This document shows positions 20,090 to 57,692 of a stretch of DNA of 64,000 nucleotides, piece by piece. The notes under the pieces were generated by a model, which searched no databases, was not told the origin of the DNA, and saw only the letters and a list, made by a program, of their open reading frames with translations. The position numbers were made by a program, and so were the translations under genes. Source of the DNA: a virus; the IMG/VR virus record IMGVR_UViG_3300029319_009044, positions 64,001-128,000 of that record; one strand, 5' to 3'. The first letter of the stretch is position 1. Every line of letters starts with the position of its first letter.

Positions 20090-20758
20090 ATGGAATCAAT
20101 GGGTAAATTTGAAAAGATCTTTTATAAGTTACTGGAAAACAATATTGCTGGTGGTGGTGGAGCTTTAGGAGATACAGCAGCCGTATACGATCCTGCAGCA
20201 GGTAGAATATCTTCTAATGATGATGTTTATGCACCAGGAGACGCTAGGAGACCTAAAGTATTAGGAAAGGTCGTATCAAGAGCTGGTACAGTTGGAAGTA
20301 AGAAAAAGAAAAAGAAGAAGGAAAAAGACGGTTTAGATGGAGTATATTTAACTGGTGAGAATGAAGAAAATGAAGTGGTGAGTGAAATTGCTCCAGTAGT
20401 ATTAGGTCTTGCTAGAGGTGCTGCAGCAGCTGGTAGAGGTGTTGCTGCTACTGGTAAAGCTTTATCAAGGGGAGCTAGAGTGGTAGCTCCTAAAGTAAAA
20501 AGTGCTGTTAAAAAAGCCGGGGAGTTAGCTATGGCTTCTCCTGTAGATGATATAGCTGCTGCAGCTGTAGATAGTGTAGTTAAAAAATTTAAAAAGAAAG
20601 ATAAAGAAGAAGAGGTGCCTGAGGAAGATGCAGAAAAGAAAAAAGCTGATAGATGTAAGCGTAGAGCAGATTCAGTTTATGGTAAAAAGACATCAGCTTA
20701 CAAGTCTGGGGCCATTGTAAGATGTAGACAAGGTAAAATTTGGAAGAAGAAAAAATGA
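20090..20758 (+). CDS. Modular late protein, probable internal head protein
   Basis: TATAAATA at 20074-20081; YAPGDARRPK segment, basic modules and an EEDAE linker. Confidence 0.6.
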   Translation: MESMGKFEKIFYKLLENNIAGGGGALGDTAAVYDPAAGRISSNDDVYAPGDARRPKVLGKVVSRAGTVGSKKKKKKKEKDGLDGVYLTGENEENEVVSEIAPVVLGLARGAAAAGRGVAATGKALSRGARVVAPKVKSAVKKAGELAMASPVDDIAAAAVDSVVKKFKKKDKEEEVPEEDAEKKKADRCKRRADSVYGKKTSAYKSGAIVRCRQGKIWKKKK

Positions 20759-21501
20759 CCCAAAAAGAACTACTCGAAGCTAGCGACTCTCTTCGTCAAT
20801 GGTTTAAGAGAGGTGGGACTGATCCTAAGACTGGTAAAAAGTTTAAGGGTTGGATAAATTGTAAGACAGGAGGACCTTGTGGACGTAAGTCTAAAAAATC
20901 AGGAGGTAGTTACCCTGCTTGCAGACCTACTAAAGCTGCATGTAATAAGATAAAGGGTAAAATGTATAAAAAGAAAAGCTCAAAGAGAGTTAATTGGAAG
21001 AAAAAGAGTGAAAATGCTGAAGAGCCTAAAAAAGGTACTGGTAAAAAACCAAAGGGTTCAAGTAGAAGATTATATACTGATGAAAATCCTAAGGATACAG
21101 TAAGTGTAAAATATAGTACAGTGGGGGATATAAGAGAGACTCTTAACAAATCTTCGTTTAAGAGTAAGTCTCATGCAAGACAGTCACAAATAATTAATTT
21201 GATACATCAAAGAGTAAGAGCAGCTCGTGGTAGAGTAAAAGATCCACAAAAGAAAAAAAGTTTAGCTGCTGCTTTTGAATACATTACAAAGAAAAAAGAA
21301 GCTAGTAAGCGTAAGACTAAACGTATGAGAGAAGAAGATGCTGAAAAGAAAAATATACATAAGCCCGTAAAGCCCGGTATACTTAAAAAGCGTTTAGGTA
21401 GCTTATCATGTAGTAAGGTAAGAGGTGCTAAAAGTAAATTAAAAAATAAAGGTACACATTATGCAAAGGCTTTACAGCGCTATTTAAATTATCATTGTTA
21501 G
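20755..21501 (+). CDS. Highly basic modular late protein
   Basis: ATG at 20755 overlaps the upstream TGA. Modules LRQWF..GWINCKTGGPCGR..YPACRP, RRLYTDENPKDTV and a C-terminal Cys module are separated by ENAE/EDAE. Confidence 0.65.
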   Translation: MTQKELLEASDSLRQWFKRGGTDPKTGKKFKGWINCKTGGPCGRKSKKSGGSYPACRPTKAACNKIKGKMYKKKSSKRVNWKKKSENAEEPKKGTGKKPKGSSRRLYTDENPKDTVSVKYSTVGDIRETLNKSSFKSKSHARQSQIINLIHQRVRAARGRVKDPQKKKSLAAAFEYITKKKEASKRKTKRMREEDAEKKNIHKPVKPGILKKRLGSLSCSKVRGAKSKLKNKGTHYAKALQRYLNYHC

Positions 21502-21514
21502 AATAAATATTGTT

Positions 21515-22210
21515 ATGAAATTCGACGACCTAGTAAAGCGTATAATAGAAGAAAATTGGGAAAAGGGTACTTCTAAAGCTCCAAAAGGTAAATCATTTGA
21601 TATGGAAAGAGGTGGAGCTCCTAGTAATGTAGATGCAGCTAGGGATGGTTCGGGGGGTAGATACAGACGGACTCGTCCTCCTAGTGCACCTTCGAAAAAG
21701 ACCCATGGTGAAATGGAAGAATCACCTAAAGAGGATAATGAAAAGAAAAAATCTGATAAGGTAAAAATTTATAGAGGTAAAGATTATAAAGTAAAAGTCG
21801 AGAAGGGTAAAAGATTTACAAAGAATGGTATTTATATGAAAGTATATTATCAAAATCCTAGTCTATCTAAAGAGAGACATAAACAAATAGCTAATCAAAT
21901 ACATAGAGCTATATCAGATGAAGAGTCGCCTGAAGAAGATGCAGAATATAGAGGGAGAAAAGTAAAACTTAACAAACCTACGAGAGGTGATGTTAAAAAG
22001 TTTAAAGTATACGTTAAAGATCCGAAAACAGGTAACGTTAAAAAGGTAAACTTCGGTCATGGAGGTACATCTGCTAAAAGAAAGGGTGAAAAGACGATGA
22101 AGATTCGTAAAAGTAATCCAAAAGCTCGTAAATCATTTAGAGCTAGACATAATTGTGATAATCCTGGTCCAAAGACTAAAGCTAGGTATTGGTCTTGTAG
22201 AAAGTGGTAG
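21515..22210 (+). CDS. Basic modular late protein ending in the RKSFRARHNC...ARYWSCRKW module seen in T4-like phages
   Basis: AATAAATA-N5-ATG; EDNE and EDAE linkers; YRGRKVKLNKP...KKVNFG module. Confidence 0.65.
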   Translation: MKFDDLVKRIIEENWEKGTSKAPKGKSFDMERGGAPSNVDAARDGSGGRYRRTRPPSAPSKKTHGEMEESPKEDNEKKKSDKVKIYRGKDYKVKVEKGKRFTKNGIYMKVYYQNPSLSKERHKQIANQIHRAISDEESPEEDAEYRGRKVKLNKPTRGDVKKFKVYVKDPKTGNVKKVNFGHGGTSAKRKGEKTMKIRKSNPKARKSFRARHNCDNPGPKTKARYWSCRKW

Positions 22211-22602
22211 ATTTAGGTCATTGGGAGGGGGTTCTAGAGGAAAATGTGGACCTACCTTATGGTTTCATTTATAAGATAACTAATCTTACTAATGATAAAA
22301 AATATATTGGTAAGAAGCAGTGTCAATCAATAAAAAAACGACCTCCTTTGAAAGGTAAAAAGAATAAACGTCACGAAAAAATAGAAACAGATTGGAAAAC
22401 CTACACTTCTTCATCAAATGAACTTAATAAAGACTTAGAACAGTTAGGAAAGGATAATTTTAAGTTTGAAATACTTAGATGGTGTGATTCTAAGTGGGAG
22501 TTGAGTTATTACGAAGCTAGATTACAATTTAAAGAAGAAGTATTGCTACGTAATGACTACTATAACGGAATCATCAATGTTAGAATCGGAGGCCGTAAGT
22601 GA
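22204..22602 (+). CDS. GIY-YIG endonuclease (stand-alone)
   Basis: YGFIYKITN..KKYIGKK, WKTYTSS, FKFEIL, YYN. Confidence 0.85.
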   Translation: MVDLGHWEGVLEENVDLPYGFIYKITNLTNDKKYIGKKQCQSIKKRPPLKGKKNKRHEKIETDWKTYTSSSNELNKDLEQLGKDNFKFEILRWCDSKWELSYYEARLQFKEEVLLRNDYYNGIINVRIGGRK

Positions 22603-23047
22603 TCCTGTACGTGGTTTTGAGTTTATTGATCTTAATAAGTGTCTAGCGAGGTCTTTTAACCAATATTTGTTGTATATTACTGAAAATGAGCTAAAATTAA
22701 CAAGAAAAGATAAGAATAAGCTTGGTATTCACTTTATTATAAAAGAGTTAGTTAAAGTTTGTAAAAAAACTAATAATAAAAAATGGTTTTACTACAAAAC
22801 TAACGGTAAATCTATTGAACATACGCTTATAAAACGTATTTTTAATGCTTTACCTACTAATATCACTTACAATGAAGGTAGTTTTAGTACATTTCTAGAA
22901 GAAAGAGATTACATTTCATTTGCTAAGAAGGATACATCAGCAGTTTCTTTCTATAAGTTTAGATTATTTCTTCGTAGATATGAATTACAACAAATAGAAA
23001 AAGAGTTTCTATCTAATATAAATATAAAACTCTCGTTACTTCCATAA
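22553..23047 (+). CDS. Hypothetical protein
   Basis: 164-aa ORF; the true start may be downstream. Confidence 0.55.
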   Translation: MTTITESSMLESEAVSDPVRGFEFIDLNKCLARSFNQYLLYITENELKLTRKDKNKLGIHFIIKELVKVCKKTNNKKWFYYKTNGKSIEHTLIKRIFNALPTNITYNEGSFSTFLEERDYISFAKKDTSAVSFYKFRLFLRRYELQQIEKEFLSNINIKLSLLP

Positions 23048-23055
23048 ATATATAC

Positions 23056-23403
23056 ATGAGTAAATTTTTGAATTTGGTTGAAGATAATAGACCAGAAAAA
23101 GACATTGATGAACTTACTAATGCTAAAAGATCTTTGCAGCGGCTTTTACTAAAAAATAAAATCGAAGCACATGGAATAGCTTTTCAAGATATATTACGAG
23201 TAAGATTAGATGATGGTCGAGTTGTTGAACTAGAGGTTAAAGATGTTCAACGTCCAGAGGATAATGAAATGCTCAATAAAGAATTTGAAAGTAAAGCAAA
23301 AACTGATCAAAGATATGCTAAGGCTTTAAAAGATAGAAAAGATGCTTTAGATAAAAAGTTAATGGACTTTGAAAAAGAAACGCAAGAAATAGAAACATCG
23401 TGA
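23056..23403 (+). CDS. Hypothetical late protein
   Basis: CATAAATA-N5-ATG; N-terminus MSKFLNLVE; contains EDNE. Confidence 0.6.
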   Translation: MSKFLNLVEDNRPEKDIDELTNAKRSLQRLLLKNKIEAHGIAFQDILRVRLDDGRVVELEVKDVQRPEDNEMLNKEFESKAKTDQRYAKALKDRKDALDKKLMDFEKETQEIETS

Positions 23404-23933
23404 AAACTTTAAAATTAATAGAAAGTTACATGCGTATACTTGAGCAGGATGATACTGAAGTAGAGGATGTAAAAATAGATGCTGAGGTTGATAAGTCTGA
23501 ACCTTCTCCTGGCGAACAATCTATCGCAGAGTTGATTGCCTCAGCTTTCGCTTATTTACCTACTGATCAAGAAGCTGAAACTGTAGAGGAATTAGAAATA
23601 AAAAAGGTTGGTACACATAATCAAGCTCCTCCAACTAAAGATATTAATCCTCGTTCTGTAATAAAGAGTGTTATTTCAAGATTACCTGTTGGTTTAAGAG
23701 CAGTATATACTAGAGGACCTGGTTTAGGTGGCATTACACCTGAATCGGAGATATATTTAGCTCAAATATTAGCTGATGCGTTTAGATATAAACCAACTTC
23801 ACAAGATGCTCATATAGCTAGTACAGTTAATAAACAATTTAATGATACTGAACCAATGAAAGTAATTGAAACTATTGAAAGATTACTTCAGTTTTCAGAT
23901 GAACCCTTAGAAGATGAACTTTTAGACAATTAA
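23400..23933 (+). CDS. Hypothetical protein with internal duplication
   Basis: EQSIAELIASAFAYLPT and EIYLAQILADAFRYKPT are two copies of one helical unit. Confidence 0.6.
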   Translation: MKTLKLIESYMRILEQDDTEVEDVKIDAEVDKSEPSPGEQSIAELIASAFAYLPTDQEAETVEELEIKKVGTHNQAPPTKDINPRSVIKSVISRLPVGLRAVYTRGPGLGGITPESEIYLAQILADAFRYKPTSQDAHIASTVNKQFNDTEPMKVIETIERLLQFSDEPLEDELLDN

Positions 23934-23937
23934 TATT

Positions 23938-24993
23938 ATGCAGTGGGAATTAGAAAAGATTTATAAAGAACAAGTTAAAGGTAATATACCTCCTCGTAAA
24001 CATTTACGTGTTATAGGAGAGAATGTAGGTTTATATACTAAAGGAGAAGAAGGTTATAATCATATTGGAGATGTTTCAGATGATAACTTTAAAAAAATTA
24101 CTAGATTAGCGTCAGACGGAAATGCTAAAGATGAAATAGAAGATTATTTAACTAAAAAATCTTATACTACAGATTCCTTTAAAGGTGAAGATGATTATAG
24201 AGTTTTGGTAGACTTACTTGATGATGGTGCTTTTGAAGAATATATTGGTCAAGATAAACCTTCACTAGAAAAAAATAAATTAGGTAATATTATTAACATA
24301 TCTTCTAAAGTGGGTTTAGATACAAAGATGGCAGAGCGCTTAGCAAGATTTACACCTATTGATAAAGGTGGTAGCAATGTAGGACCTGGAGAAATTTTAC
24401 TCGCGTTAACGTTTAATGATGTATCTAATTCAACTATTGGGGGTGATTTAATGTTAGGTGATCAAAAGCTTGAAGTTAAAGGTCAAGGAGGTAGATTTGG
24501 TCAACAACCTGGTAGAGGAGGAGTAGCTTTTTCTGTTAATCAAGTTGAGGAAGGGTTAGATAAGAAACTTGATCTCGATAATGTAGTTTCTTTAGAGAAA
24601 CTTATAAGTTCTTTATATAACGCTTATAAGCAAGAAGGAAAAGAAAAAGAGTTTATTCCTAGATTACATGAAACTTTAAAAACAGCTTACCCTGGAGCTG
24701 ATTTAAATTATTTAAACAATTCTACTGATTTTAACGACTTAGGTACAAGGCAAGGTAGACGAATTCTACCAGGAGCTATTAGAAAAGCTTTAGGTAAAAT
24801 TAATTTTGATTACTATTCATCTAAATATGATACTGATTTATATATTTTTATTGATAAGAAAAGTTTAAATTACGCTCTATTTACTAAAGATGATGTTTTA
24901 AAAGATGGGGGTTTAATAGATCAAAATATTTTAAAATCTGATAGTTTTTCTAGAAACACCTTATATCCAAACTTTATATACATTTTTAAATGA
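23938..24993 (+). CDS. Putative PD-(D/E)xK nuclease-fold protein
   Basis: VGPGEILLAL...GGDL.....LEVKG fits the E..D..(E)xK pattern. Confidence 0.55.
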   Translation: MQWELEKIYKEQVKGNIPPRKHLRVIGENVGLYTKGEEGYNHIGDVSDDNFKKITRLASDGNAKDEIEDYLTKKSYTTDSFKGEDDYRVLVDLLDDGAFEEYIGQDKPSLEKNKLGNIINISSKVGLDTKMAERLARFTPIDKGGSNVGPGEILLALTFNDVSNSTIGGDLMLGDQKLEVKGQGGRFGQQPGRGGVAFSVNQVEEGLDKKLDLDNVVSLEKLISSLYNAYKQEGKEKEFIPRLHETLKTAYPGADLNYLNNSTDFNDLGTRQGRRILPGAIRKALGKINFDYYSSKYDTDLYIFIDKKSLNYALFTKDDVLKDGGLIDQNILKSDSFSRNTLYPNFIYIFK

Positions 24994-26201
24994 AAAGCTT
25001 TAAACTATATTTCGAACAATACGAGCTTTTAAACGAAGCTAAGGCTAATACTCACCTTACACATTTAGAAGAGCTTATCCTTACTAAGGGAGAAGGCGGC
25101 TATAAGACTGCAAGAGGTTTTATAACCGATTTGCTTTCACATTTACAGGGTAAGAGTAAAAGAAAAGTAAATACATCAGTTAAATGGGATGGCGCTCCTG
25201 CTATTTTTGCTGGTAAGCATCCAGAGACTGGTAAATTTTTTGTAGGTACTAAATCTATATTCAATAGAGAGCCTAAAATTAATTATACAGATAACGACGT
25301 TGAGATGAATCATGGTCATGCTCCTGGTTTAGCAGATAAATTAAAGAAAGCTCTTAAGTATCTTCCTAAGCTTGGTATTAAAGGTATACTTCAAGGTGAT
25401 TTTATGTTTGATTCTTCATCTGTTAACAAGGAAGTTATTGATGGAGTAGATCATTTTACATTTAAACCAAACACTATTAAGTATGCTGTAGAGAAAGATT
25501 CTAAATTAGGTCGTGAAATAGCTAATTCAGTATTTGGTATTGTATTTCATACAGGATATGCTGACTTAAATAGTCCTCCACAATATGGTATTAATGTAAA
25601 AGGACTTAAAAAGGTACCAGGTGTATGGGTTGATGATGCTATATTTACTGATTCTACTGGAACAGTTACACTTACGACAGATGAAGCAAAACAAGTAAGA
25701 GATTATGTAAAGACAGCAGATTCAATAAAAGTTGATTATAGAGATTTACCTTTAGATTTACTAAACATTTACGCTAATTCTGAGATTCAAAAGGGTATGT
25801 TTTTAGAAGACCCTGAAGTTTCATTTAATAACTTTGTTGATTGGTTCAAAGGTAGAATGACTAAAGAGATTGAAAAGAGAAAGTCTAAAGCTGGAAAACT
25901 TAAAGTAGAAGAAAGTTTTAAGAAGAAAATGGCTGAATTCAATCAGCAAAAAGATGATATAGTAAATATTTTTAAGGTAAGTAAATTACTTTCACAAGCT
26001 AAACAAATCTTTATTAACAAGTATAATAATGCTGTATATAATACTAAGCATTTCTTAGATGCAGAAGATGGTACATTAAAAGTAACTTCACCAGAAGGTT
26101 ACGTAAGTGTATCTAAAGCTGGTGATGCTGTAAAGCTTGTAGATAGATTAGAGTTTAGTCGTGCTAACTTTAGTGGAGGTCAAACAAGTACAAAAAAATG
26201 A
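24990..26201 (+). CDS. RNA-ligase-like nucleotidyltransferase (DUF6267-like)
   Basis: HLTHLEE, motif I KWDG, LQGDFMF, motif IV EGYV, motif V VKLVDR. Confidence 0.65.
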   Translation: MKSFKLYFEQYELLNEAKANTHLTHLEELILTKGEGGYKTARGFITDLLSHLQGKSKRKVNTSVKWDGAPAIFAGKHPETGKFFVGTKSIFNREPKINYTDNDVEMNHGHAPGLADKLKKALKYLPKLGIKGILQGDFMFDSSSVNKEVIDGVDHFTFKPNTIKYAVEKDSKLGREIANSVFGIVFHTGYADLNSPPQYGINVKGLKKVPGVWVDDAIFTDSTGTVTLTTDEAKQVRDYVKTADSIKVDYRDLPLDLLNIYANSEIQKGMFLEDPEVSFNNFVDWFKGRMTKEIEKRKSKAGKLKVEESFKKKMAEFNQQKDDIVNIFKVSKLLSQAKQIFINKYNNAVYNTKHFLDAEDGTLKVTSPEGYVSVSKAGDAVKLVDRLEFSRANFSGGQTSTKK

Positions 26202-26701
26202 AAACATTTAGAGAATATTTTGAAGAAAACAAAGCTATTGAGTCACTTAAAGGGTGGAAGCATGATGATGCTCAAAAATATGCAATAAAATTAATTAAGC
26301 AATTTGGTGAACCTGATGAGGTAACTGAAAGTATGCTACTTTGGAATAATATAGAGCCGCCATTTGAATCTGTTTATATAAAAGATGAAAGTATACCTCA
26401 TGATTTTCCAGCTTCTCATAGAGATTTTGTTTATTCAACTATGAATATAGACGTACCAGCTGATATGTTAGATACGTTAGGTCATGTTACTGGTAGTATT
26501 ATTTATGATGGTCTTAAAAAAGAAGTAACTGCAAGATGCGGTGACTTATATGCTAATGCAGCTACTTTAGGTTTTGTAAAAGATATGGTTGATGGTAAGA
26601 TTTCAACTGATTTTGAAGAAGCTAAAAAAGAGTATGCTAATAGGATTCAAAAAGCTCCTCTACCTGATTGGTATCCAGATAGTATGGAGGAAGATAAATG
26701 A
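26198..26701 (+). CDS. Hypothetical protein with capsid-targeting-like N-terminus
   Basis: Begins MKTFREYFEE; contains IPHDFP..H.DF and ARC. Confidence 0.6.
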   Translation: MKTFREYFEENKAIESLKGWKHDDAQKYAIKLIKQFGEPDEVTESMLLWNNIEPPFESVYIKDESIPHDFPASHRDFVYSTMNIDVPADMLDTLGHVTGSIIYDGLKKEVTARCGDLYANAATLGFVKDMVDGKISTDFEEAKKEYANRIQKAPLPDWYPDSMEEDK

Positions 26702-27237
26702 AGACTTTTAAAGAATATTTTGAAGATCAAGAATCTACTTCAGAAAAAGTAGCTCTTTTACCTGGTGGGTTTAAACCTCCTACTAAAGGTCACTTTAATG
26801 CTTTAAGGTATTTGCTACAGGATACAGATAAAGGTGTTGTTTTTATAGGAGGTAAAGAGAGAGACGGTATAACCCCTGAGCAATCAGAAAAAATATGGAA
26901 CATATATTCTAACTACTTAGGTAAACCTGTTAACGTTGTAGATGTACCAAATCCAGTTAGAGCAGTATACGAGTTTGCAGATGATAACTTAGATAAGACT
27001 TTATTTGTAGGTGCAGGAGCAAAAGATGAAGATGTAAAACGATATGCTTACTTTATCAATAATGTTGATAAGTACCCATTAGTTAATGTTGTAAAAATAC
27101 CTATGCAAGAAGGTGGTATTTCCGGAAGTCAAACACGTGAATTAATTAGTAAAGATATAGATAAAGCTTTAAATTATTTTGTTCCAGAAGAAGTTTCGTC
27201 TGATGATAAAGAACGAATAAAAAACATACTTGCATAA
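26698..27237 (+). CDS. HxGH-class nucleotidyltransferase (cytidyltransferase-like)
   Basis: LPGGFKPPTKGH and ISGSQTRE motifs. Confidence 0.8.
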   Translation: MKTFKEYFEDQESTSEKVALLPGGFKPPTKGHFNALRYLLQDTDKGVVFIGGKERDGITPEQSEKIWNIYSNYLGKPVNVVDVPNPVRAVYEFADDNLDKTLFVGAGAKDEDVKRYAYFINNVDKYPLVNVVKIPMQEGGISGSQTRELISKDIDKALNYFVPEEVSSDDKERIKNILA

Positions 27238-27245
27238 ATATTAAT

Positions 27246-27620
27246 ATGAGAGATCAAAAGCGTAAAGAAATGGCTTTAATGGAAGCTGCATATATGAATG
27301 TAGGGCATGGCTCAGATTGTCAATGCTCTAGTTGTATGGGTGAACATGATCAATCTGAAATAGATATGGCAGGTCGCGATCTTCTTAAAGCTAGAGAGTA
27401 CGCTGAAAAATTAAGTATGATGGTTCAACAATTACCTGGTCTCGAAGGGTGGGTAGCTTCTAAAATTACTAAAGCATCTGATTATCTTTCTTCTGTATTT
27501 CATTATCTAGATTATGAAATGAACGAAAAGGGTCATCATCAAAATGATCATGAGCAACAAATAGCTATAGTAGTTAAACCAGATCAAGGTAATTTTAACA
27601 AAGGATATGAAGAAGTTTAA
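27246..27620 (+). CDS. Hypothetical late protein
   Basis: CATAAATA-N5-ATG; LEGWVASKITKASDYLSSVFHYLDY module seen in T4-like phages. Confidence 0.6.
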   Translation: MRDQKRKEMALMEAAYMNVGHGSDCQCSSCMGEHDQSEIDMAGRDLLKAREYAEKLSMMVQQLPGLEGWVASKITKASDYLSSVFHYLDYEMNEKGHHQNDHEQQIAIVVKPDQGNFNKGYEEV

Positions 27621-28047
27621 ACAGTTCTTTGCAGAAAAGACTGTATTAGGTCTTATTGAATTTTTTGATGTAGATGGTGTAGGTAAGATTCCATCTAAAT
27701 TAGATTCTGGTAATGGTGCATTTAACGTTATACATGGTGAAGATATCCAAATACAAGGTAATAAGGTTCATTTCAAGACTGTTAATAATAAACGTCTAAT
27801 GAAAGATAAGGTTGACGATATTACTATTAATGTTGGAGCAGGTCATACTGAAGATAGACCTGTAGTTAATTTTGATTTAAAAATTGGTAACAAGGAATAT
27901 AAAGATATTCCATTTTCTGTAGGAGATAGAACTACTAACCTATTTAAAATATTAGTTAGTAAAGATTTTATTGAAAAAGAGCTTGACGCTCTAATAGATG
28001 TCAGTAAAGAAAATATAGCCCATAAGGATATAGAGGCAAATTATTAA
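27607..28047 (+). CDS. Retropepsin-like aspartic protease (RimK-associated type)
   Basis: KLDSGN catalytic motif, RPVV, F...DR, ILV..DF. Confidence 0.75.
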   Translation: MKKFKQFFAEKTVLGLIEFFDVDGVGKIPSKLDSGNGAFNVIHGEDIQIQGNKVHFKTVNNKRLMKDKVDDITINVGAGHTEDRPVVNFDLKIGNKEYKDIPFSVGDRTTNLFKILVSKDFIEKELDALIDVSKENIAHKDIEANY

Positions 28048-28596: not shown

Positions 28597-29646
28597 TTAT
28601 CTTAATCCAGTAGATTCGAAAACATCTCTAGTAACACCAGCTTTAAAGCCACCTTCAATACCTTTTACTATAACTGATACAGCATTATGACTATGTAAGC
28701 TTTCGTTATGAGAAGCAACAATCTTAAAGTCTAAAATACGAGATTCATTAGTAAGCTTTTCATAAAGCAATCTAACAGCATCTTCTACAAACTTTAGATA
28801 AGCACCATTTTTCTCTGCAAATGCTTGCTCATCTTCTCTCTTAACCATAACTTGCGTTTCAGTTTGTAAAGCAGCTAAACATAACTCTTGAATATCTTCA
28901 ATCCAAAGCATATCTTCAAATCTAACACTTACACGAGCAACACTTCTTTGACTATGAGGTACAGTAGCTCTATTGCGATACTTTTCTGCATGCTCACTTA
29001 ACTCGAAGCTACAAGGACAAGCAGATGAATAAACAAAATCGAAATGAATATACTTTTTAAATTCACCTTCTTTAGTTAAATCACCTTCAAATACTACATC
29101 GTAATATTGATAACCTTCTAACCCGCTGCGTAAACTATTTTGTTTAATAGGGTAAGAAATCTTAAGCATTATTCTAGAATCAAAACATTTAAGATTATTT
29201 TTATAAGTTTCTAAAACATCTTTGATCTTATCAATACTAAATGTCTCATCTTTATGATCGTAAAAACTTCTCATAATACGTGACATATTGATACCTTTCT
29301 TATGAGCTTCTAAACTAACACTACCGGTAACACTTGTTTCTAGTTCAATAGTTTTACCGTTTCGCTTTTTATAAGTAAGAGGTAATTTAAAGTTATGAAT
29401 ACCTACTTGTTGTATAGGTACTGCTGCTCCTTGAATTAAACTAGAAGGTCCATTTTGTAGATCAGGTAAAGAGGAAATATATTTTTTAGTAGCATTAACT
29501 TTATCATCATAAACTCTAATAGGAGGAAAATAACTCTTACTATATTCACTACCCATTATTTCTTTTGCTACAATATCCTTTTCACCAGTTAGTTCATCAT
29601 CTTCACCTAACCACTCATAATTAGAATCTTCTTTACTTTTACTCAT
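28597..29646 (-). CDS. folE2: GTP cyclohydrolase IB
   Basis: LPDLQ, IQQVGI, KGINMSR, SACPCS, HSQRS, VKREDEQAFAE, FVEDAVR, ESLHSHNA. Confidence 0.92.
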   Translation of the reverse strand: MSKSKEDSNYEWLGEDDELTGEKDIVAKEIMGSEYSKSYFPPIRVYDDKVNATKKYISSLPDLQNGPSSLIQGAAVPIQQVGIHNFKLPLTYKKRNGKTIELETSVTGSVSLEAHKKGINMSRIMRSFYDHKDETFSIDKIKDVLETYKNNLKCFDSRIMLKISYPIKQNSLRSGLEGYQYYDVVFEGDLTKEGEFKKYIHFDFVYSSACPCSFELSEHAEKYRNRATVPHSQRSVARVSVRFEDMLWIEDIQELCLAALQTETQVMVKREDEQAFAEKNGAYLKFVEDAVRLLYEKLTNESRILDFKIVASHNESLHSHNAVSVIVKGIEGGFKAGVTRDVFESTGLR

Positions 29647-29698
29647 TTATAGCTATATTATAGTTACAATATTTTATTTTCAAGACTAAATATTGTAT

Positions 29699-30124
29699 AT
29701 GGCTAAATTGTCACAAAAAGAATTAGTACAGGAAGGCATAACTAGCCTTATTAGTAAGGGTTTAAAGAAGGGTGCCCAGGCAGTAGGTGCTGTAGGTGGT
29801 GCTCTTAAAGCAGTTTCTGATGCTGGTATAGATGCAGGAGTAGGTAATGTTGTAAGAGGAGCAAAAGCTGGTTCGGAAGGAACTAAAAAATTTTTAACAG
29901 GTAAAGATAAAAAGCTTAATGATACTATAGAAGATTTAGGTTACTATAAAGATGAAGATTCTATAGTTAAAGGTAAAGGCGATATAAGGGTTGTAGATGT
30001 AAATGATTTAGATTATGATTCTGAAGGTAAACAAAAAGCAGGTAAAAATAATTACAATCTTATTATTAAGTGGGATAAAGACTCTAAATCATGGTCGTTA
30101 GTTAGAGCTAAAAAAACTTCCTAG
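29699..30124 (+). CDS. Hypothetical late protein
   Basis: CTAAATA-N6-ATG(29699); begins MAKLSQKELVQE, followed by a Gly/Ala-rich helix. Confidence 0.6.
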   Translation: MAKLSQKELVQEGITSLISKGLKKGAQAVGAVGGALKAVSDAGIDAGVGNVVRGAKAGSEGTKKFLTGKDKKLNDTIEDLGYYKDEDSIVKGKGDIRVVDVNDLDYDSEGKQKAGKNNYNLIIKWDKDSKSWSLVRAKKTS

Positions 30125-30204
30125 TAAAAGTTGCAATCGAAAAAATAAGATATAATTATCCGAGATTGGGACGAGGGAGACTACTTTAAATTTCTTCAAG
30201 GTAG

Positions 30205-30232
30205 TTGATTTATTTTTTATTCTTACTATAAT
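30205..30232 (+). promoter_or_regulatory. sigma70-type promoter for queD
   Basis: TTGATT-N16-TATAAT-N6-ATG. Confidence 0.65.
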
Positions 30233-30238
30233 ACCTGT

Positions 30239-30850
30239 ATGACTTATACTTCATCAAAAGTAATTGAACTAGGATCTGCAGCTTTTCGTCAACCTAATGC
30301 TAGTTCACATTGCAAATATTTACATGGATATCAATTAAAAGCAGAGTTAACATTTGGTTGTAAAGAACTAGATGATAATAATTGGGTATACGACTTTGGT
30401 GGTTTAAAAGATCTCAAAACTATTTTCAATAATCAATTTGATCATACTACTGTTATATCAGGTAGTGATCCTGAGTTAGATACATTTAAAGAATTAGCTA
30501 ATAAAGATATTATTCAATTAAGAATTATGGATGGTGGTGTAGGTATTGAAAAATTTGCTGAATGGTGTTTTAAGACTGCAGATACTTTCGTTGATGAAGC
30601 TTCTGAAGGTCGTGTTTGGGTAGAAAATGTTACAGTATATGAGCATAGTAATAATTTTGCTTCTATTGGTAAAAGGCCTAAAGCTTCAACATTATATGTA
30701 AATGAAGAAGGTACCAAAACATATGTAGAAGTTGAAGAAGAAGCAACTGAAGAAACTTCAGCTCATAACCCTCGCGCTGCTAGAGTAGGTTCAGATGTAA
30801 GAGAAGGTAACTTTAGCGATCCCTTTGCAGGTACTTCATGGGGTAATTAA
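30239..30850 (+). CDS. queD: 6-carboxy-5,6,7,8-tetrahydropterin synthase
   Basis: SHCKYLHGY, WVYDFGGLK, FDHT, G.EKFAE, V.EH..N; acidic C-terminal extension. Confidence 0.88.
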   Translation: MTYTSSKVIELGSAAFRQPNASSHCKYLHGYQLKAELTFGCKELDDNNWVYDFGGLKDLKTIFNNQFDHTTVISGSDPELDTFKELANKDIIQLRIMDGGVGIEKFAEWCFKTADTFVDEASEGRVWVENVTVYEHSNNFASIGKRPKASTLYVNEEGTKTYVEVEEEATEETSAHNPRAARVGSDVREGNFSDPFAGTSWGN

Positions 30851-31575
30851 GCACCTAATACTGAGCAAATAAATCTTAGTATTTTACTTCTCGCTATTTC
30901 GGTATTACCAAACTTAAAAGAATATATATTATTTTCAGCACATTTATCTGTATTAAAAGAATTGAATATTTCTTTGTAGCCTGATTTATTAACATCAGCT
31001 TGGTTACAATCACCAATAACTACATATCTAGAATCTCTTCCAAATCTAGTTAATATAGTAGTAAGCTCTTTACGTGATAAATTTTGCGCTTCGTCTACAA
31101 TTACTAAAGATTTATTGAATGTTAAACCTCTTACAAAATTTACTGGTATAGCTTCAATCAAGCCTTGCTTCTTTAAATTGCTACATACACCTGGACCAGC
31201 TATTTCAGATACCTTTTCATCTAAAGGTATAGCATAAGGTGAAAATTTATCATCTATTTCACCAGGTAATGAACCTAAACTCTTCTCTGCTGATTCAGCT
31301 ATGGATCTAATATAGACTAATCTGCTAAAAGATTCATCTCTTATTAATTCTAAACCAGCATATACAGCGATATATGTTTTCATGCTACCTGCTGGACCAT
31401 CTACAAAAGCCATTTTAGTATTTGTATCTTTTAAACAGTTATAAAATTGCTTATGTGCAGGATTAAAATAAAACGGTCGCTTTATTTTAAAGGAGAAAAG
31501 ATGATTATGTTCAAATGCTTCCGCGAGATCTAAATCAGAACTCGCCCGACGTTTACGAACGGTCTTTATACTCAT
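30847..31575 (-). CDS. phoH: PhoH-family ATPase
   Basis: GPAGSMKT, LGSLPG...K, RGLTF, IVDEAQN, TRFG, GD..Q.D. Confidence 0.92.
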   Translation of the reverse strand: MSIKTVRKRRASSDLDLAEAFEHNHLFSFKIKRPFYFNPAHKQFYNCLKDTNTKMAFVDGPAGSMKTYIAVYAGLELIRDESFSRLVYIRSIAESAEKSLGSLPGEIDDKFSPYAIPLDEKVSEIAGPGVCSNLKKQGLIEAIPVNFVRGLTFNKSLVIVDEAQNLSRKELTTILTRFGRDSRYVVIGDCNQADVNKSGYKEIFNSFNTDKCAENNIYSFKFGNTEIARSKILRFICSVLGA

Positions 31576-31591
31576 ATATATTATTATTTAG

Positions 31592-31619: not shown

Positions 31620-31626
31620 TTTATAT

Positions 31627-54433: not shown

Positions 54434-55099
54434 ATGGCTTTAAAACTTAATTTAGTTGTAGAAAAACCTGACATAAACGATGAGTTCGAATATATTGAAG
54501 AACAAGCAGATAGAAATGCTGAATCGAGTCTTTTTATAAAAGGTCCTTATATGATGGCAGAAGGTGTAAATCGTAATAATAGGCTTTACCCTTTAGATGA
54601 ATTAAAAAGAGAAACTGAACGTTATATTGAAGAAATGGTTAAACCGGGAAGAGCTATGGGAGAACTTAATCACCCAACTACAGCAGATGTAGATCTAGAA
54701 AGAGCATGTCATATGGTTACTGAATTAACACAAGAAGGTAATATATTCTATGGTAAATCTAAAGTTCTATCAACTCCTTGCGGGCAGGTAGTAAGATCGC
54801 TTATAAATGATGGAGTAAAAGTAGGTATGTCTTCAAGAGCTTTGGGAACTTTAGAAGAGGGATCAGATCACAGTACAGTTAAAAATATGAAACTGGTTGC
54901 TATTGATTGTGTAGCTGATCCATCTTATCCAAGTGCTTTTGTAGATGGAATTTTAGAATCTAAACAATGGGTTGTCACAGGTGATAATAGATATGAAGAA
55001 ATATATGAAGATTTTGAAAAATCTATAAAAACATTACCTAAAAAAGAAGTAGATTCATTTTTACGTAACAGAATTTTAAACTTTATTAAATCTTTATAA
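54434..55099 (+). CDS. gp21: Prohead protease
   Basis: NRNNRLYP, RAMGELNHP, TPCG, GMSSRALG, D.VADPS.PSAFV.GILE. Confidence 0.95.
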   Translation: MALKLNLVVEKPDINDEFEYIEEQADRNAESSLFIKGPYMMAEGVNRNNRLYPLDELKRETERYIEEMVKPGRAMGELNHPTTADVDLERACHMVTELTQEGNIFYGKSKVLSTPCGQVVRSLINDGVKVGMSSRALGTLEEGSDHSTVKNMKLVAIDCVADPSYPSAFVDGILESKQWVVTGDNRYEEIYEDFEKSIKTLPKKEVDSFLRNRILNFIKSL

Positions 55100-55110
55100 T
55101 AAATAATATT

Positions 55111-55257
55111 ATGGCTAATCAAAAAAACAAAATTATAAAGTTTATTCAAGAACTTTCTAGTAAAAATTATGCCGAGGCACATAAATATTTAAAGAGCGTA
55201 ATTGAAGACAAGATTACAAAGAAAATCAATAACGCTACAGAAAAACCACTCTTTTAA
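55111..55257 (+). CDS. Small prohead core protein (gp67-like)
   Basis: Not in the ORF track: MANQKNKIIKFIQELSSKNYAEAHKYLKSVIEDKITKKINNATEKPLF; AATAAATA-N5-ATG. Confidence 0.6.
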   Translation: MANQKNKIIKFIQELSSKNYAEAHKYLKSVIEDKITKKINNATEKPLF

Positions 55258-55258
55258 T

Positions 55259-56113
55259 ATGAAAAACGAAAAATCATTACCCGAGCAGGCAGAAGAAGTA
55301 CTTACTGAAGATTCAGTAAAAGAAATAGAAACTGCCATTGAAGAAAAAATTCAATTATCAGTTGAAGCAGCACTGACTAATCAAGACGAGTTATATGCAG
55401 AAAAACTTGAAGAGTTAGTAACAGCAATTGATAAAGATCATACTGATAAATTAAAAAGAGTGGTTGAAGCAGTAGATCATAATAACGCTAATAAGCTTGT
55501 ACATGTAGTTAAAAAGTATGAAAATGAACTTAACGATAAAGCAGATTCATTTAAAAATACTTTAGTAGAAAGTGTTTCAGATTATTTAGATGAATATCTA
55601 GAAGAGTCAGTTCCAACACAAGCTATTGAAGAAGCTACTAAAAATAGAACAGCTAGAGAAGTTCTTTCTAATTTAAGAAAGGTACTTGCTGTTGATTCAA
55701 GTCTTATGAGTGAGTCAGTCAAAGAAGCGGTATTAGATGGTAAAACTCAAATTGATGAATTAACCTCTAAAGTTGATGAATTACATAAAGAAAATGTACT
55801 TCTAAAAGAAGCTTATGATAAGCAAACTTCTACTTTACTGTTAGAAAATAAAACTGCAGGTATAAATGGTAAGAAGAAAGAATATCTACTTAAGATTTTA
55901 AGTGATAAATCGCCTAAGTTTATTGAAGAGAATTTCGAATATACTTGTAAATTGTTTGATAAAAAAGAAAATGAAAGACTTTCAGTACTAAAAGAGGAAG
56001 CATACAAAAAGCGTAAAGTTAAAACAGATGCTCCAGTACAACCAATTACAGAGGAGAAAAAGCCTGAGATTTCTAACCCTTATTTAGCGGAATTAAAAAG
56101 ATCTCACAAATAA
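55259..56113 (+). CDS. gp22: Prohead core scaffold protein
   Basis: Acidic coiled coil between gp21 and gp23, with LVESVSDYLDEY; ATG start at 55259. Confidence 0.85.
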   Translation: MKNEKSLPEQAEEVLTEDSVKEIETAIEEKIQLSVEAALTNQDELYAEKLEELVTAIDKDHTDKLKRVVEAVDHNNANKLVHVVKKYENELNDKADSFKNTLVESVSDYLDEYLEESVPTQAIEEATKNRTAREVLSNLRKVLAVDSSLMSESVKEAVLDGKTQIDELTSKVDELHKENVLLKEAYDKQTSTLLLENKTAGINGKKKEYLLKILSDKSPKFIEENFEYTCKLFDKKENERLSVLKEEAYKKRKVKTDAPVQPITEEKKPEISNPYLAELKRSHK

Positions 56114-56190
56114 TTTCACCCCTGAACAATGAGGTGCTTGCCACCTGAGTAACTTGGGACTAGATCCCATGAGGTAAAATGAAAGGAAAC
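56113..56190 (+). promoter_or_regulatory. Structured 5' leader of the major capsid gene
   Basis: Hairpins AGGTG/CACCT and TGGGA/TCCCA enclosed by ATTTCACC/GGTAAAAT, then an SD-like AAGGA. Confidence 0.5.
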
Positions 56191-56195
56191 GTCTA

Positions 56196-57692
56196 ATGAA
56201 TAAACCACAATCATTTATTGATAGAGATAGAGCAGATTCACTTCTTGAGAAGTGGGCACCTGTTCTTGAGTACTCTTCCGATAGTGTTAAGCCCATTGAA
56301 GACGATCACACCCGCCTTAATACTGCTATTCTTCTTGAGAACCAAGAGCAGTGGTGTATTGAGGAAGCCAATTCCGCTGGTAACGGCGGAGCTCTTGGTA
56401 GTGGTGGTACTAACTCTGGTATTTATAATCCAACAGCTGCTGGTAACTCCTATGTAGGAGCTCCTAACGCTGATACTTATGCTGCTGGAGATGCTCGTCT
56501 TCCTAAAGTGCTTATCCCAATGATTCGTCGTACGTTCCCTGAGCTTATTACTAACGAAATCGTCGGTGTTCAGCCAATGTCTGGTCCTGTTGGATTAGCA
56601 TTTGCTCTTCGCTACGCTTATCAGTCTACTACTCTTGGTAGTGGTATTGATGGTGGTGCTTCCGGCGGTGGAAGTGGTGCTGGTATTTCGCATGCTAAGT
56701 ATGCGGGAGCTGGTGGACTTCCTGGTGATGAGCTTGGATACCAGCTTCTTGATACTCGCTTTACTGGTTCATCTGCTCACAATCTTAGTGGTGTAGGTGG
56801 TTACTGGGAATTCGCAGATCAAGATAAAGGTGTTGCGCAAATTCTTTCTGCTTTTGAAATCACTGGATCCATTCCTCAGGTTGAGGTTAAGTTCGAAAAG
56901 ACCGCAGTTGAGGCCGGTACACGCCGCCTTGGTGCTCGCTGGTCTGTTGAACTTGAGCAAGACCTTAAGAACATGAACGGTATTGATATTGATGCTGAGA
57001 TCACGAATGCTATGTCATACGAGATTCAAGCTGAGATCGACCGTGAAATGCTCATGAGAATGATTCAAGCTGCTTTCAGTGGTGGACTGAACAAAGGCTA
57101 CTCCGTATGGTCACCTGCTTCTGCAGATGGTCGTTGGATGGTCGAGCGTAATAGGGACTTTTATCAGCGTCTTATCATTGAAGCCAATCGTATTGCTGTA
57201 CGTAACAGACGTGGAGCTGCTAACTTTATTGTTGCTACTCCTCGTGTTTGCGCCATCCTTGAGATGCTCCCTGAATTCCAGTGGGTACCTGTACAGGGTG
57301 ATGTAAATACCCAGCCTGTTGGTATTGCTAAGGTTGGTTCGCTTGGTGGAAGATTCAACGTTTACCGTGATACTCGTACAGAGGTTCAGAATAGCACTAA
57401 CTACGGAGGTGACAACGCTGGTGAATACAGCGGTGGTACATCTGGAGTTGAATATGCACTCCTTGGTTACAAGGGACCTGAATTCTACGATACTGGTATC
57501 ATTTATTGTCCTTACATTCCTGTCATGGTTCAGAGAACTATCGGTCCTAACGACTTCGCTCCACGTGTTGGATTGCTTACTCGTTATGGTGTTGTTGACA
57601 ACATCTTCGGTGCTGATCTCTACTACCATGTCATTATTGTTCAGGGACTTGGTACTGCGTTTACGCCAGCTTCACAGTCGGTGTACTTCTAA
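56196..57692 (+). CDS. gp23: Major capsid protein
   Basis: LLEKWAPVL, AILLENQ, GVQPMSGPVGLAFALR, SVELEQDLKNMNGID, EIDRE, YCPYIP, PRVGLLTRYG. Confidence 0.97.
   Translation: MNKPQSFIDRDRADSLLEKWAPVLEYSSDSVKPIEDDHTRLNTAILLENQEQWCIEEANSAGNGGALGSGGTNSGIYNPTAAGNSYVGAPNADTYAAGDARLPKVLIPMIRRTFPELITNEIVGVQPMSGPVGLAFALRYAYQSTTLGSGIDGGASGGGSGAGISHAKYAGAGGLPGDELGYQLLDTRFTGSSAHNLSGVGGYWEFADQDKGVAQILSAFEITGSIPQVEVKFEKTAVEAGTRRLGARWSVELEQDLKNMNGIDIDAEITNAMSYEIQAEIDREMLMRMIQAAFSGGLNKGYSVWSPASADGRWMVERNRDFYQRLIIEANRIAVRNRRGAANFIVATPRVCAILEMLPEFQWVPVQGDVNTQPVGIAKVGSLGGRFNVYRDTRTEVQNSTNYGGDNAGEYSGGTSGVEYALLGYKGPEFYDTGIIYCPYIPVMVQRTIGPNDFAPRVGLLTRYGVVDNIFGADLYYHVIIVQGLGTAFTPASQSVYF

What the first reader, a model, noticed from the sequence alone, without database searches (positions are those of the whole stretch)
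23056..28047. Enzymes tagged with a T4 capsid-targeting-like N-terminus: a packaged, injected toolkit
Seen: MKSFKLYFEQ (ligase-like), MKTFREYFEE (unknown), MKTFKEYFED (HxGH nucleotidyltransferase) and MKKFKQFFAE (aspartic protease). Looser versions occur in neighbours (MSKFLNLVE, MKTLKLIE, MKFDDLVKRIIEE, MGKFEKIFYKLLE). The proteins are otherwise unrelated and lie downstream of late promoters. Known: T4 internal proteins use the 10-aa CTS MKTYQEFIAE, which gp21 removes. Inference: a ligase, nucleotidyltransferase, protease and perhaps the adjacent nuclease-fold protein are encapsidated and delivered with the DNA, for example for anti-defence or host takeover.
Basis: partly seen in the sequence, partly recalled or inferred. 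Interest (0 to 1): 0.8.

Follow-up and report, generated by a model that had tools for sequence, protein, structure and literature searches.

The report
T4-type capsid-loading tags on phage enzymes
An uncultured marine T4-like phage starts four unrelated enzymes with a near-copy of the ten-residue tag that phage T4 uses to load proteins into its head, so it probably packages and injects a small enzyme kit, though no experiment has shown this.

Summary
Four proteins at 24990, 26198, 26698 and 27607 start with MK[STK]F[KR]x[YF]F[EA][EDQ]. A fifth lies elsewhere in the 171-kb genome. That is 5 of 193 ORFs against 0.035 expected, with no internal copies. The tag closely matches T4 IPI (MKTFKEFTST) and IPII/IPIII (MKTYQEFIAE). 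Residues 4 and 7, T4's targeting determinants, are aromatic in all 45 distinct tags collected.

The tag is portable. In related marine phage contigs it heads about eleven cargo families. Cyanophage orthologues lack this 16-19-residue extension. The distant DUF6267 family has the N-terminal consensus MKSFKQ[YF]LSE|SK. A matrix built from those N-termini ranks the four tags first in this genome and T4's three internal proteins first in a T4 locus.

All tagged genes sit in operons behind T4-type late promoters, and the phage has gp20-gp23 homologues. Published proteomes of cyanophages S-SM1 and S-SZBM1 contain the syntenic nucleotidyltransferase.

The cargo is an RNA-ligase-like DUF6267 protein, a HIGH nucleotidyltransferase (fused to DUF6267 in other phages), a retropepsin-like protease and a 167-residue unknown.

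Packaging, tag removal and any anti-defence role remain untested. The looser neighbour tags are not supported as tags. This scan has reported similar CTS-like tags in several huge phages.

The parts
24990..26201 (+). DUF6267 protein (403 aa), RNA-ligase-like nucleotidyltransferase. Tag MKSFKLYFEQ (24990-25019) is followed by a conserved LLNE|A site (residues 13-16).
   Evidence: PF19782 E 1e-95. K65, D67 and G68 are invariant in 100 sequences. AF2 pLDDT 92.6, with the tag as a separate helix (4-14) and a low-confidence linker (15-24). Top VIA matches are RNA ligases: 5cot Z 8.9, Trl1 8.0, T4 Rnl2 7.3. Orthologues keep L[LI]xE|[AS] in front of the conserved ANTHL start of the domain.
26198..26701 (+). 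167-aa protein of unknown function with tag MKTFREYFEE (26198-26227).
   Evidence: No Pfam or PHROG hit. AF2 pLDDT 92.8; residues 1-10 average 62 and the fold begins at about residue 11. Only weak YbjN / type III chaperone-like matches, Z 5.8 or less. Homologues start with variants of the tag, one of them MKTYKEFIAE.
26698..27237 (+). HIGH-signature (cytidylyltransferase-like) nucleotidyltransferase, 179 aa, with tag MKTFKEYFED (26698-26727) and linker QESTSE.
   Evidence: TKGH at 29-32 and ISGSQTR at 141-147. PF01467 is sub-threshold. PPAT structures match at E 0.02-0.04. hhalign against cyanophage T4-GC190 and its relatives gives 90% probability, E 1.6e-6.
27607..28047 (+). Retropepsin-like (PF05618 / RimB-type) protease, 146 aa, with tag MKKFKQFFAE (27607-27636).
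   Evidence: DSG at 33-35. PF05618 E 1.3e-4, below the cut-off. PDB 9g58 E 3e-4. Highest PSSM score in the genome, 18.3.
23938..24993 (+). Untagged 351-aa protein, translationally coupled to the ligase-like gene; possibly a PD-(D/E)xK nuclease.
   Evidence: Starts MQWELEKIYK. No Pfam or PHROG hit. The Atlas offers only weak restriction-endonuclease leads at 0.79-0.80. The proteins in the same position in Melnitz and HTVC008M are not clearly homologous, although the Melnitz one starts MQGFKTFLSE|A (PSSM 18.0).
27246..27620 (+). Untagged 124-aa acidic protein with its own late promoter.
   Evidence: CATAAATA at 27233-27240. No family hit.
23043..23050 (+). Late-promoter-like CATAAATA (plus TATAAATA at 23017-23024) heading the operon 23056-27237.
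   Evidence: The same motif at the same distance precedes gp21, the portal-region genes, and the sheath and baseplate genes.
20090..22210 (+). Three very basic late proteins (net charge +20, +53 and +34) at the head of the same cluster; candidate DNA-associated internal proteins with N-proximal LLE or IIE.
   Evidence: Charges. Late promoters at 20074 and 21502. [LI][LIV]E near the N-terminus. They are not PSSM-supported tags.
54434..55099 (+). gp21 prohead protease homologue, the presumed processing enzyme.
   Evidence: 33% identical to T4 gp21. The ELNHP and SSR blocks are conserved, and the N-terminal LVVE aligns with T4 LLIE.
55202..57692 (+). gp22 scaffold-position gene (55202-56113) and gp23 major capsid protein homologue (56196-57692): the core and shell into which CTS cargo would be loaded.
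   Evidence: gp23 is 33% identical to T4 gp23; a candidate maturation site is CIEE|ANS. The gp22 assignment rests on its position between gp21 and gp23 and its late promoter.

Best explanation
The shared decapeptide is a T4-type capsid targeting sequence. During late infection the tagged proteins co-assemble, through the N-terminal amphipathic helix with aromatic residues at positions 4 and 7, into the gp22-based scaffolding core. The gp23 shell then closes around that core. The gp21-type protease digests the scaffold and probably trims at least some tags. For the ligase-like protein the likely cut is at the conserved LLNE|A. For the 167-aa protein and the protease it is possibly after E10. 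The enzymes then stay in the head with the DNA and enter the host with it, where they can act before any phage gene is expressed. The cargo is a functionally linked ligase-like/HIGH-nucleotidyltransferase pair, a retropepsin-like protease and an unknown 167-aa protein. What is shown here: the tag exists, is non-random, is portable, is conserved at protein level, and matches the T4 CTS at its known determinants; the genes have late-promoter motifs; the head machinery is present. What is inferred: physical packaging, cleavage, injection and the role in the host.
For: (1) T4 IPII and IPIII start MKTYQEFIAE and IPI starts MKTFKEFTST, read from NC_000866. The tags here share 6 of the first 7 residues with IPI. 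(2) T4 mutagenesis places targeting at residues 4 and 7 and processing at 8 and 10 (PMC9026906). F4 and [YF]7 are invariant in 45 distinct tags. (3) There are 5 tags against 0.035 expected, and none internal. A PSSM from distant DUF6267 N-termini ranks the four tags 1-4 of 193. The same PSSM ranks T4 IPII, IPIII and IPI 1-3 of 47 ORFs in a T4 locus. (4) The tag is portable. A scan of IMG/VR for DNA encoding MKTF[KR]EYFE gave 34 matches in 29 contigs, all at ORF starts and on at least 6 cargo families. A looser motif raises this to about 11 families, including a Pol-beta-type nucleotidyltransferase. (5) The tag is an add-on. P-HM2 and S-PM2 orthologues start directly at the conserved core, whereas the proteins here have 16-19 extra residues. 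AF2 shows a separate helix followed by a flexible linker. (6) Selection acts on the protein. Synonymous codons vary, K/R and F/Y exchange, and the upstream DNA is not conserved. (7) Among 116 unfused DUF6267 representatives, 46 have a CTS-like start with consensus M-[KIL]-[SNT]-F-K-[QE]-[YF]-[LI]-[ST]-E-[SA]-K. Fused forms carry LxE just before the domain. (8) All five tagged genes lie in operons behind NATAAATA late-promoter motifs, and gp21 and gp23 homologues are present. (9) Published virion proteomes contain the syntenic cytidylyltransferase-like protein: T4-GC190 in S-SM1 (PMC3037559) and SSZBM1_140 plus its neighbour SSZBM1_139 in S-SZBM1 (PMC9146016). SSZBM1_140 starts MRFRQFIIE|A, a CTS-like start one residue shorter.
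Against: There are no proteomic or N-terminal sequencing data for this phage or any close relative. Position 8 is F in all four tags, and position 10 is Q (ligase-like) or D (nucleotidyltransferase). Under T4 rules D10 blocks cleavage, so removal of residues 1-10 may not happen. DUF6267 (T4-GC71, SSZBM1_141) is not flagged or listed as a virion protein in the two cyanophage data sets, though those orthologues lack the tag. P-HM2 GC190 has no tag, so in some cyanophages virion association, if it occurs, does not need it. The homology between this nucleotidyltransferase and GC190 is only at profile level, over the N-terminal 107 columns. No cargo protein matches a known defence or anti-defence family.
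Confidence: 0.65

Rival explanations
1. The tag does load the proteins into the prohead, but they act there or during assembly rather than being an injected toolkit. Examples would be sealing nicks in packaged DNA or trimming core proteins. Alternatively they are degraded and expelled like scaffold.
For: A ligase-like enzyme and a protease could plausibly act on packaged DNA or on core proteins. Three very basic proteins with acidic linkers lie in the same cluster. In T4 most core proteins are degraded after assembly (PMC8442874).
Against: In T4, proteins carrying the CTS stay in the head and are delivered into the cell, foreign enzymes included (PMC9026906). The cyanophage nucleotidyltransferase is found in mature virions.
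Confidence: 0.12
2. The shared start is an address or interaction helix for something other than the capsid. Possibilities include docking to a phage or host complex, oligomerisation, or a stability signal. Its likeness to the T4 CTS would then be convergent.
For: Packaging has not been shown. Positions 8-10 differ from T4's processing determinants. Short amphipathic N-terminal helices serve many purposes.
Against: The phage is T4-like and has the cognate head machinery. The match to the T4 CTS lies at the experimentally defined targeting positions. Environmental T4-like contigs carry an almost exact T4 CTS (MKTYKEFIAE) on varied cargo, including a homologue of the 167-aa protein. All tagged genes are late.
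Confidence: 0.13
3. The similarity is a by-product of nucleic-acid-level processes. These could be a shuffled 5' gene cassette or recombination linker, or an AT-rich start region selected for efficient or coupled translation. The peptide itself would have no function.
For: Three of the four genes overlap the upstream stop codon (ATGA), so initiation is coupled. T4-type genomes do shuffle modules through short conserved sequences (PMC2839356, listed). The codons are A/T-rich.
Against: The upstream sequences differ. Synonymous codons vary freely while the amino acids, or conservative K/R and F/Y exchanges, are kept. The pattern persists in DUF6267 proteins below 50% identity. Highly expressed late genes such as gp23 and the sheath gene lack it. 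It is never internal.
Confidence: 0.05

Closest known systems
[quoted passage not shown]
   Same: It sits at the extreme N-terminus and is about 10 residues long: M-K-T-[YF]-x-E-[FY]. Residues 4 and 7 are aromatic and an acidic residue lies at 9/10. It occurs on otherwise unrelated proteins. The genes are non-essential-looking late genes in a variable locus, and the phage has gp21, gp22 and gp23.
   Different: Position 8 is F rather than I, and position 10 is not always E. The cargo is made of folded enzymes of 146-403 aa, not small basic proteins. The host phage is a distant marine lineage of about 32% G+C. No experimental evidence exists.
T4 Alt (ADP-ribosyltransferase) and the cleaved ejection/inner-body proteins of phiKZ and SPN3US (PMC5694885, PMC7411985)
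   Same: Enzymes or large proteins are packaged in the head, processed after Glu by a gp21-type prohead protease, and delivered with the DNA.
   Different: Those proteins use longer, dissimilar propeptides with an S/A/G-x-E or LxE site. They do not use a shared decapeptide of the IP type.
Virion-associated cytidylyltransferase-like protein of T4-like cyanophages (T4-GC190; S-SM1 in PMC3037559, S-SZBM1 in PMC9146016)
   Same: It occupies the same genomic neighbourhood (DUF6267/T4-GC71 followed by a HIGH nucleotidyltransferase downstream of gp41/mazG). It has the same enzyme superfamily signature and is physically detected in virions.
   Different: It is related to the protein here only at profile level (90% probability over 107 columns). 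It is often longer (about 360-385 aa). P-HM2's copy has no tag, while S-SZBM1's has a one-residue-shorter CTS-like start.
ATP-dependent RNA ligases (Naegleria NgrRnl/Rnl5, fungal Trl1 ligase domain, T4 Rnl1 and Rnl2)
   Same: DUF6267 has an invariant KxDG, EG[YF]V and a downstream lysine block. The adenylyltransferase fold is its best structural match.
   Different: Z is only 7-9. A helical insert of about 130 residues (230-346) lies between the strand blocks. No OB or known C-terminal domain is present. No activity has been shown.

Membership tests
T4-type capsid targeting sequence (CTS) | Sits at the extreme N-terminus of the precursor | tested here: met
   All four tags start their ORFs. 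All 34 IMG/VR matches are at ORF starts. There are no internal [MK]K-tag copies in 55,580 residues.
T4-type capsid targeting sequence (CTS) | Decapeptide like MKTYQEFIAE / MKTFKEF..., with the targeting determinants at residues 4 and 7 | tested here: met
   T4 sequences were read. F4 is present in 45/45 and Y/F7 in 45/45 distinct tags. T4 IPII/III score 12.6 and IPI 7.7 with the marine PSSM, the top 3 of 47 ORFs. The determinants are taken from PMC9026906.
T4-type capsid targeting sequence (CTS) | Processing determinants: I/L at 8 and E at 10 (the gp21 site [LI]-x-E) | tested here: inconclusive
   Position 8 is F in all four tags. Position 10 is Q, E, D and E respectively. The ligase-like protein has a conserved LLNE|A at 13-16. 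The wider DUF6267 family has [LI]8-x-E10. The specificity of this phage's gp21 is unknown.
T4-type capsid targeting sequence (CTS) | Portable: the same tag on unrelated cargo | tested here: met
   Four unrelated proteins here, and about 11 cargo families in related contigs. Cyanophage orthologues lack it.
T4-type capsid targeting sequence (CTS) | The phage has the gp21 protease, the scaffolding core and the gp23 shell | tested here: met
   gp21 and gp23 are each 33% identical to T4, with the ELNHP and SSR blocks kept. The gp22 assignment is by position only.
T4-type capsid targeting sequence (CTS) | Made late, together with the head proteins | tested here: met
   In silico only: NATAAATA lies 6-8 nt upstream of the first gene of each operon that holds a tagged gene, as it does for head and tail genes.
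T4-type capsid targeting sequence (CTS) | The protein is found inside virions and the tag is removed | not testable with these tools
   Indirect evidence only: the syntenic nucleotidyltransferase is in the S-SM1 and S-SZBM1 virion proteomes.
ATP-dependent polynucleotide ligase / capping-enzyme nucleotidyltransferases (for DUF6267) | Motif I KxDG with the catalytic lysine | tested here: met
   KWDG at 65-68. K65, D67 and G68 are invariant in 100 sequences.
ATP-dependent polynucleotide ligase / capping-enzyme nucleotidyltransferases (for DUF6267) | Adenylyltransferase fold | tested here: inconclusive
   VIA-align: 5cot Z 8.9 (186 aligned, rmsd 3.8), Trl1 8.0, Rnl2 7.3, Rnl1 6.7, DNA ligases 5.3-6.5. 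More than 20 of the top 40 rows are ligases. Foldseek gave nothing at E of 0.001 or better.
ATP-dependent polynucleotide ligase / capping-enzyme nucleotidyltransferases (for DUF6267) | Motif IV (EGxx) and motif V (lysine block) | tested here: met
   EGYV at 369 and VKLVDR at 381. E369, G370 and K382 are invariant. This is a pattern-level reading.
HIGH-signature cytidylyltransferase-like nucleotidyltransferases (PF01467 clan) | (H/T)xGH and ISxTxxR signatures; family model score | tested here: inconclusive
   TKGH at 29-32 and ISGSQTR at 141-147 are present. PF01467 scores 13.3 bits against a cut-off of 21. PPAT structures match at E 0.02-0.04. hhalign against GC190-type proteins gives 90%.
Retropepsin-like PF05618 (RimB-type) proteases | Catalytic D-[ST]-G and family model score | tested here: inconclusive
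   DSG at 33-35. PF05618 scores 22.3 bits against a cut-off of 27 and covers only residues 66-140. PDB 9g58 matches at E 3e-4.

The most novel reading that the evidence does not exclude
DUF6267, a core gene of T4-like cyanophages (T4-GC71) with thousands of marine relatives, would be a virion-delivered RNA/DNA ligase. It would work with the HIGH nucleotidyltransferase to which it is fused in other phages. Together with a protease, and in relatives a Pol-beta-type nucleotidyltransferase, the pair would form a pre-made repair kit injected with the DNA. The kit would undo nucleic-acid- or cofactor-targeting host defences, such as tRNA cleavage or nicking, before any phage gene is expressed. The packaged proteome of a very abundant ocean phage group would then be readable from a ten-residue tag.
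Probability: 0.2. Interest if true: 0.8.

Novelty: new variant of a known kind. Interest (0 to 1): 0.6.

Why it matters
If the tag works as in T4, the set of proteins that an abundant group of marine T4-like phages carries in its head and injects can be predicted from sequence alone. In this case that set consists of enzymes rather than small basic proteins. The reading offers a concrete, testable function for two long-unexplained observations. One is the cytidylyltransferase-like protein found in cyanophage virions since 2010. The other is the conserved cyanophage core gene T4-GC71 (DUF6267), shown here to be RNA-ligase-like and repeatedly fused to that nucleotidyltransferase. It also shows that the T4 CTS is an old and widespread loading signal, not a peculiarity of the T-even phages.

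Tried and rejected
No DNA-level relative exists in the isolate phage collection. By protein search the nucleotidyltransferase matches only Flavobacterium phage immuto, where it is an internal domain of a 907-aa multidomain protein with no tag.

Foldseek against the PDB gave nothing at E of 0.001 or better for either model. The 167-aa protein got only weak YbjN / type III chaperone-like matches (Z 5.8 or less), and the Atlas gave only unnamed clusters, so its function stays unknown.

The 351-aa neighbour could not be shown to be a nuclease. The Atlas leads score 0.79-0.80 only. It is not clearly homologous to the gene in the same position in HTVC008M or Melnitz.

PADLOC found no defence-related family for any cluster protein. 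No paper mentions DUF6267, and none links a CTS to cyanophages or marine phages.

The looser neighbour tags failed the PSSM test.

I rejected the idea that the tag is a DNA cassette or a translation signal, on the grounds of codon variation and non-conserved upstream DNA. I also rejected a signal peptide, because the tag has no hydrophobic stretch.


Full report
**What the DNA is.** The window is bases 64001-128000 of a 170,908-bp contig with 32% G+C. It belongs to a T4-like marine myovirus. It encodes homologues of the T4 portal, the gp21 prohead protease, the gp23 major capsid protein, DNA polymerase, gp46/47 and many tail proteins. gp21 and gp23 are each 33% identical to T4. Its nearest isolates, all distant, are Kyanoviridae: Pelagibacter phage HTVC008M, the Methylophilales phage Melnitz and T4-like cyanophages. 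Nothing similar at DNA level is in the isolate collection. Thousands of close protein relatives exist in marine metagenomes.

**The observation.** The four N-termini are exactly as reported:
- MKSFKLYFEQ at 24990
- MKTFREYFEE at 26198
- MKTFKEYFED at 26698
- MKKFKQFFAE at 27607

Across the genome the strict pattern matches 5 of 193 ORFs. The fifth is at G000 168815-169432(-). A column shuffle of the N-termini, conservative because it includes the tagged genes, expects 0.035. The pattern never occurs internally with a preceding M or K in 55,580 residues.

**Comparison with T4.** I read the T4 internal-protein genes from NC_000866. IPII and IPIII start MKTYQEFIAE, and IPI starts MKTFKEFTST. The tags here share six of the first seven residues with IPI. 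A review of the T4 work reports that targeting depends mainly on residues 4 and 7 and processing on residues 8 and 10. It also reports that Asp at position 10 blocks processing but not targeting (PMC9026906). In 45 distinct tag-coding sequences from this phage and its relatives, F4 and Y/F7 are invariant.

**An independent matrix.** I built a position matrix only from the N-termini of DUF6267 proteins that are 47% identical or less to the one here. It ranks the four tags first to fourth among 193 N-termini of this genome. Three of those four belong to unrelated proteins. The same matrix ranks T4 IPII, IPIII and IPI first to third among 47 ORFs of a 16-kb T4 stretch. The likeness to the T4 CTS is therefore measurable, not just an impression.

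**The tag is a portable add-on.**
- A scan of IMG/VR for DNA encoding MKTF[KR]EYFE found 34 matches in 29 contigs. Every one sits at the start of an ORF, on at least six different protein families.
- A looser pattern on the same contigs brings the number of cargo families to about eleven. They include a second nucleotidyltransferase variant and a Pol-beta-type nucleotidyltransferase.
- The order of the cluster is kept while cargo genes come and go, much as at the variable internal-protein loci of the T-even phages.
- Cyanophage orthologues start directly at the conserved cores: P-HM2 MSKNTHLEHLED for DUF6267 and MKKVYVTFGRLNPP for the nucleotidyltransferase. The proteins here carry 16-19 extra residues.
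- In the AlphaFold model of the DUF6267 protein (pLDDT 92.6), the tag is a separate helix (residues 4-14) joined to the fold by a low-confidence linker.
- Codons for the tag vary synonymously, K/R and F/Y exchange, and the upstream DNA is not conserved. Selection therefore acts on the peptide.

**The wider DUF6267 family.** Among 150 representatives clustered at 50% identity, 116 are unfused. Of these, 46 have a CTS-like start and 10 have essentially no extension. The consensus is M-[KIL]-[SNT]-F-K-[QE]-[YF]-[LI]-[ST]-E-[SA]-K. That is the T4 CTS including its [LI]-x-E cleavage motif. Close orthologues of the protein here keep L[LI]xE|[AS] immediately before the conserved domain. Fused forms also have LxE at the junction. 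A homologue of the 167-aa protein starts MKTYKEFIAE. A scan for that exact peptide finds it both in classical T-even genomes, on IPII- and IPIII-like proteins, and in environmental contigs on other cargo.

**Timing and machinery.** ATAAATA occurs only 97 times on both strands of the genome. Forty-one of those lie within 45 nt upstream of an ORF, typically 6-8 nt before the start codon of head, tail and baseplate genes. This motif precedes 20090, 21515, 23056 and 27246, and it also precedes the operon that holds the fifth tagged gene. The gp21 homologue keeps the conserved ELNHP and SSR blocks. Its N-terminal LVVE aligns with T4's LLIE.

**Outside experimental evidence.** Sullivan et al. 2010 detected a 'cytitidyltransferase', T4-GC190, in S-SM1 virions. 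The supplementary table marks it YES (PMC3037559). In P-HM2 this gene lies immediately downstream of DUF6267, which is T4-GC71. In S-SZBM1, LC-MS of virions found the cytidylyltransferase SSZBM1_140 and the next gene, SSZBM1_139 (PMC9146016). These lie directly after the DUF6267 gene SSZBM1_141. SSZBM1_140 starts MRFRQFIIE|A, a CTS-like start one residue shorter, followed by about 25 residues before the conserved core. The nucleotidyltransferase here is related to this group at profile level, with 90% probability and E 1.6e-6 over 107 columns. DUF6267 itself is not flagged or listed as a virion protein in either data set. Those cyanophage copies lack the tag.

**The cargo.**
- DUF6267 has an invariant KxDG, EG[YF]V and a lysine block. 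Its best structural matches are RNA ligases: Naegleria NgrRnl Z 8.9, Trl1 8.0, T4 Rnl2 7.3 and Rnl1 6.7. DNA ligases follow at 5.3-6.5. Foldseek gave no significant match.
- The 179-aa protein has the TKGH and ISGSQTR signatures and weak matches to PPAT.
- In other phages DUF6267 and the cytidylyltransferase-like domain are fused, in both orders (P0121, P0204, P0128). This argues that the two work together.
- The 146-aa protein has DSG and sub-threshold matches to PF05618 and to PDB entry 9g58.
- The 167-aa protein folds confidently but resembles nothing convincingly.
- The untagged 351-aa neighbour has only weak restriction-endonuclease leads.

**What remains open.** No data show that these proteins are in particles. 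Whether gp21 removes the tag is doubtful in T4's register. Position 8 is F, and position 10 is Q or D in two tags. The ligase-like protein has a better site at LLNE|A. In the 167-aa protein the fold starts at about residue 11, so a cut after E10 is sterically plausible.

The four looser tags in neighbouring genes fail the matrix test. However, 10 of the 13 cluster ORFs have [LI]-x-E in residues 4-18, against 33 of 180 elsewhere (p = 2e-5). This test was chosen after seeing the data. The three genes at 20090-22210 encode very basic proteins, with net charges of +20 to +53. They may be the true counterparts of T4's basic internal proteins.

**Verdict.** The reading that this is a T4-type capsid targeting sequence is the best-supported explanation, at about 0.65. 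The 'injected toolkit' function is inference. The principle is known from T4, and reviews already suggest that T4-like phages use the CTS to load varied proteins. What is new is its presence in a distant, abundant marine lineage and on enzymes. I found no paper describing this. Other agents of this scan have reported similar CTS-like tag sets in several huge phages.

Noticed in passing
window 20090-22210: Three adjacent late genes encode extremely basic proteins (net charge +20, +53 and +34; 22-29% K+R), with acidic EEDAE-type linkers noted by another reader. The C-terminal module of 21515-22210 matches phrog_7595. A 130-aa relative in IMG/VR contig L016 carries the canonical MKTFKEYFEQ tag. 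They are candidate DNA-binding internal head proteins.
   Followed up: partly
P0121, P0128, P0204 (representatives found with window 24990-26201): DUF6267 is fused to a cytidylyltransferase-like domain in both orders in other phages, and in P0204 also to DUF5824. DUF5824 also precedes a tag-like peptide and the 167-aa domain in P0291. These modules form a recurring cassette and possibly polyproteins.
   Followed up: partly
window 22204-23047: An ORF with a GIY-YIG-like start (YGFIYKITNL...KYIGKK) and an overlapping second ORF sit inside the late cluster just upstream of a late promoter. This may be a homing endonuclease, whole or split.
   Followed up: no
G000 152707-152940 (-), outside the window: A 77-aa ORF starts MSKTKQFIAQ, ranks fifth with the CTS matrix (score 7.5) and has a late-promoter-like motif upstream. 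It is a further possible small cargo protein.
   Followed up: no
L035 7158-9881 (Flavobacterium phage immuto, NC_055915): A 907-aa protein combines a Pol-beta-type nucleotidyltransferase start, the HIGH nucleotidyltransferase domain and a C-terminal HExxH-like region. It is annotated only as NMN adenylyltransferase.
   Followed up: no
window 7964-9824, 28597-32385: The window holds genes for 7-deazaguanine synthesis: QueC-like, a GTP cyclohydrolase-like 349-aa protein, QueD-like and a radical-SAM QueE-like protein. A PhoH gene lies among them, which suggests modified DNA.
   Followed up: no
whole genome (G000): ATAAATA occurs only 97 times on both strands, and 41 of these lie within 45 nt upstream of an ORF start, nearly all before structural genes. 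It is a clean late-promoter marker that could be used to classify all genes of this clade.
   Followed up: partly
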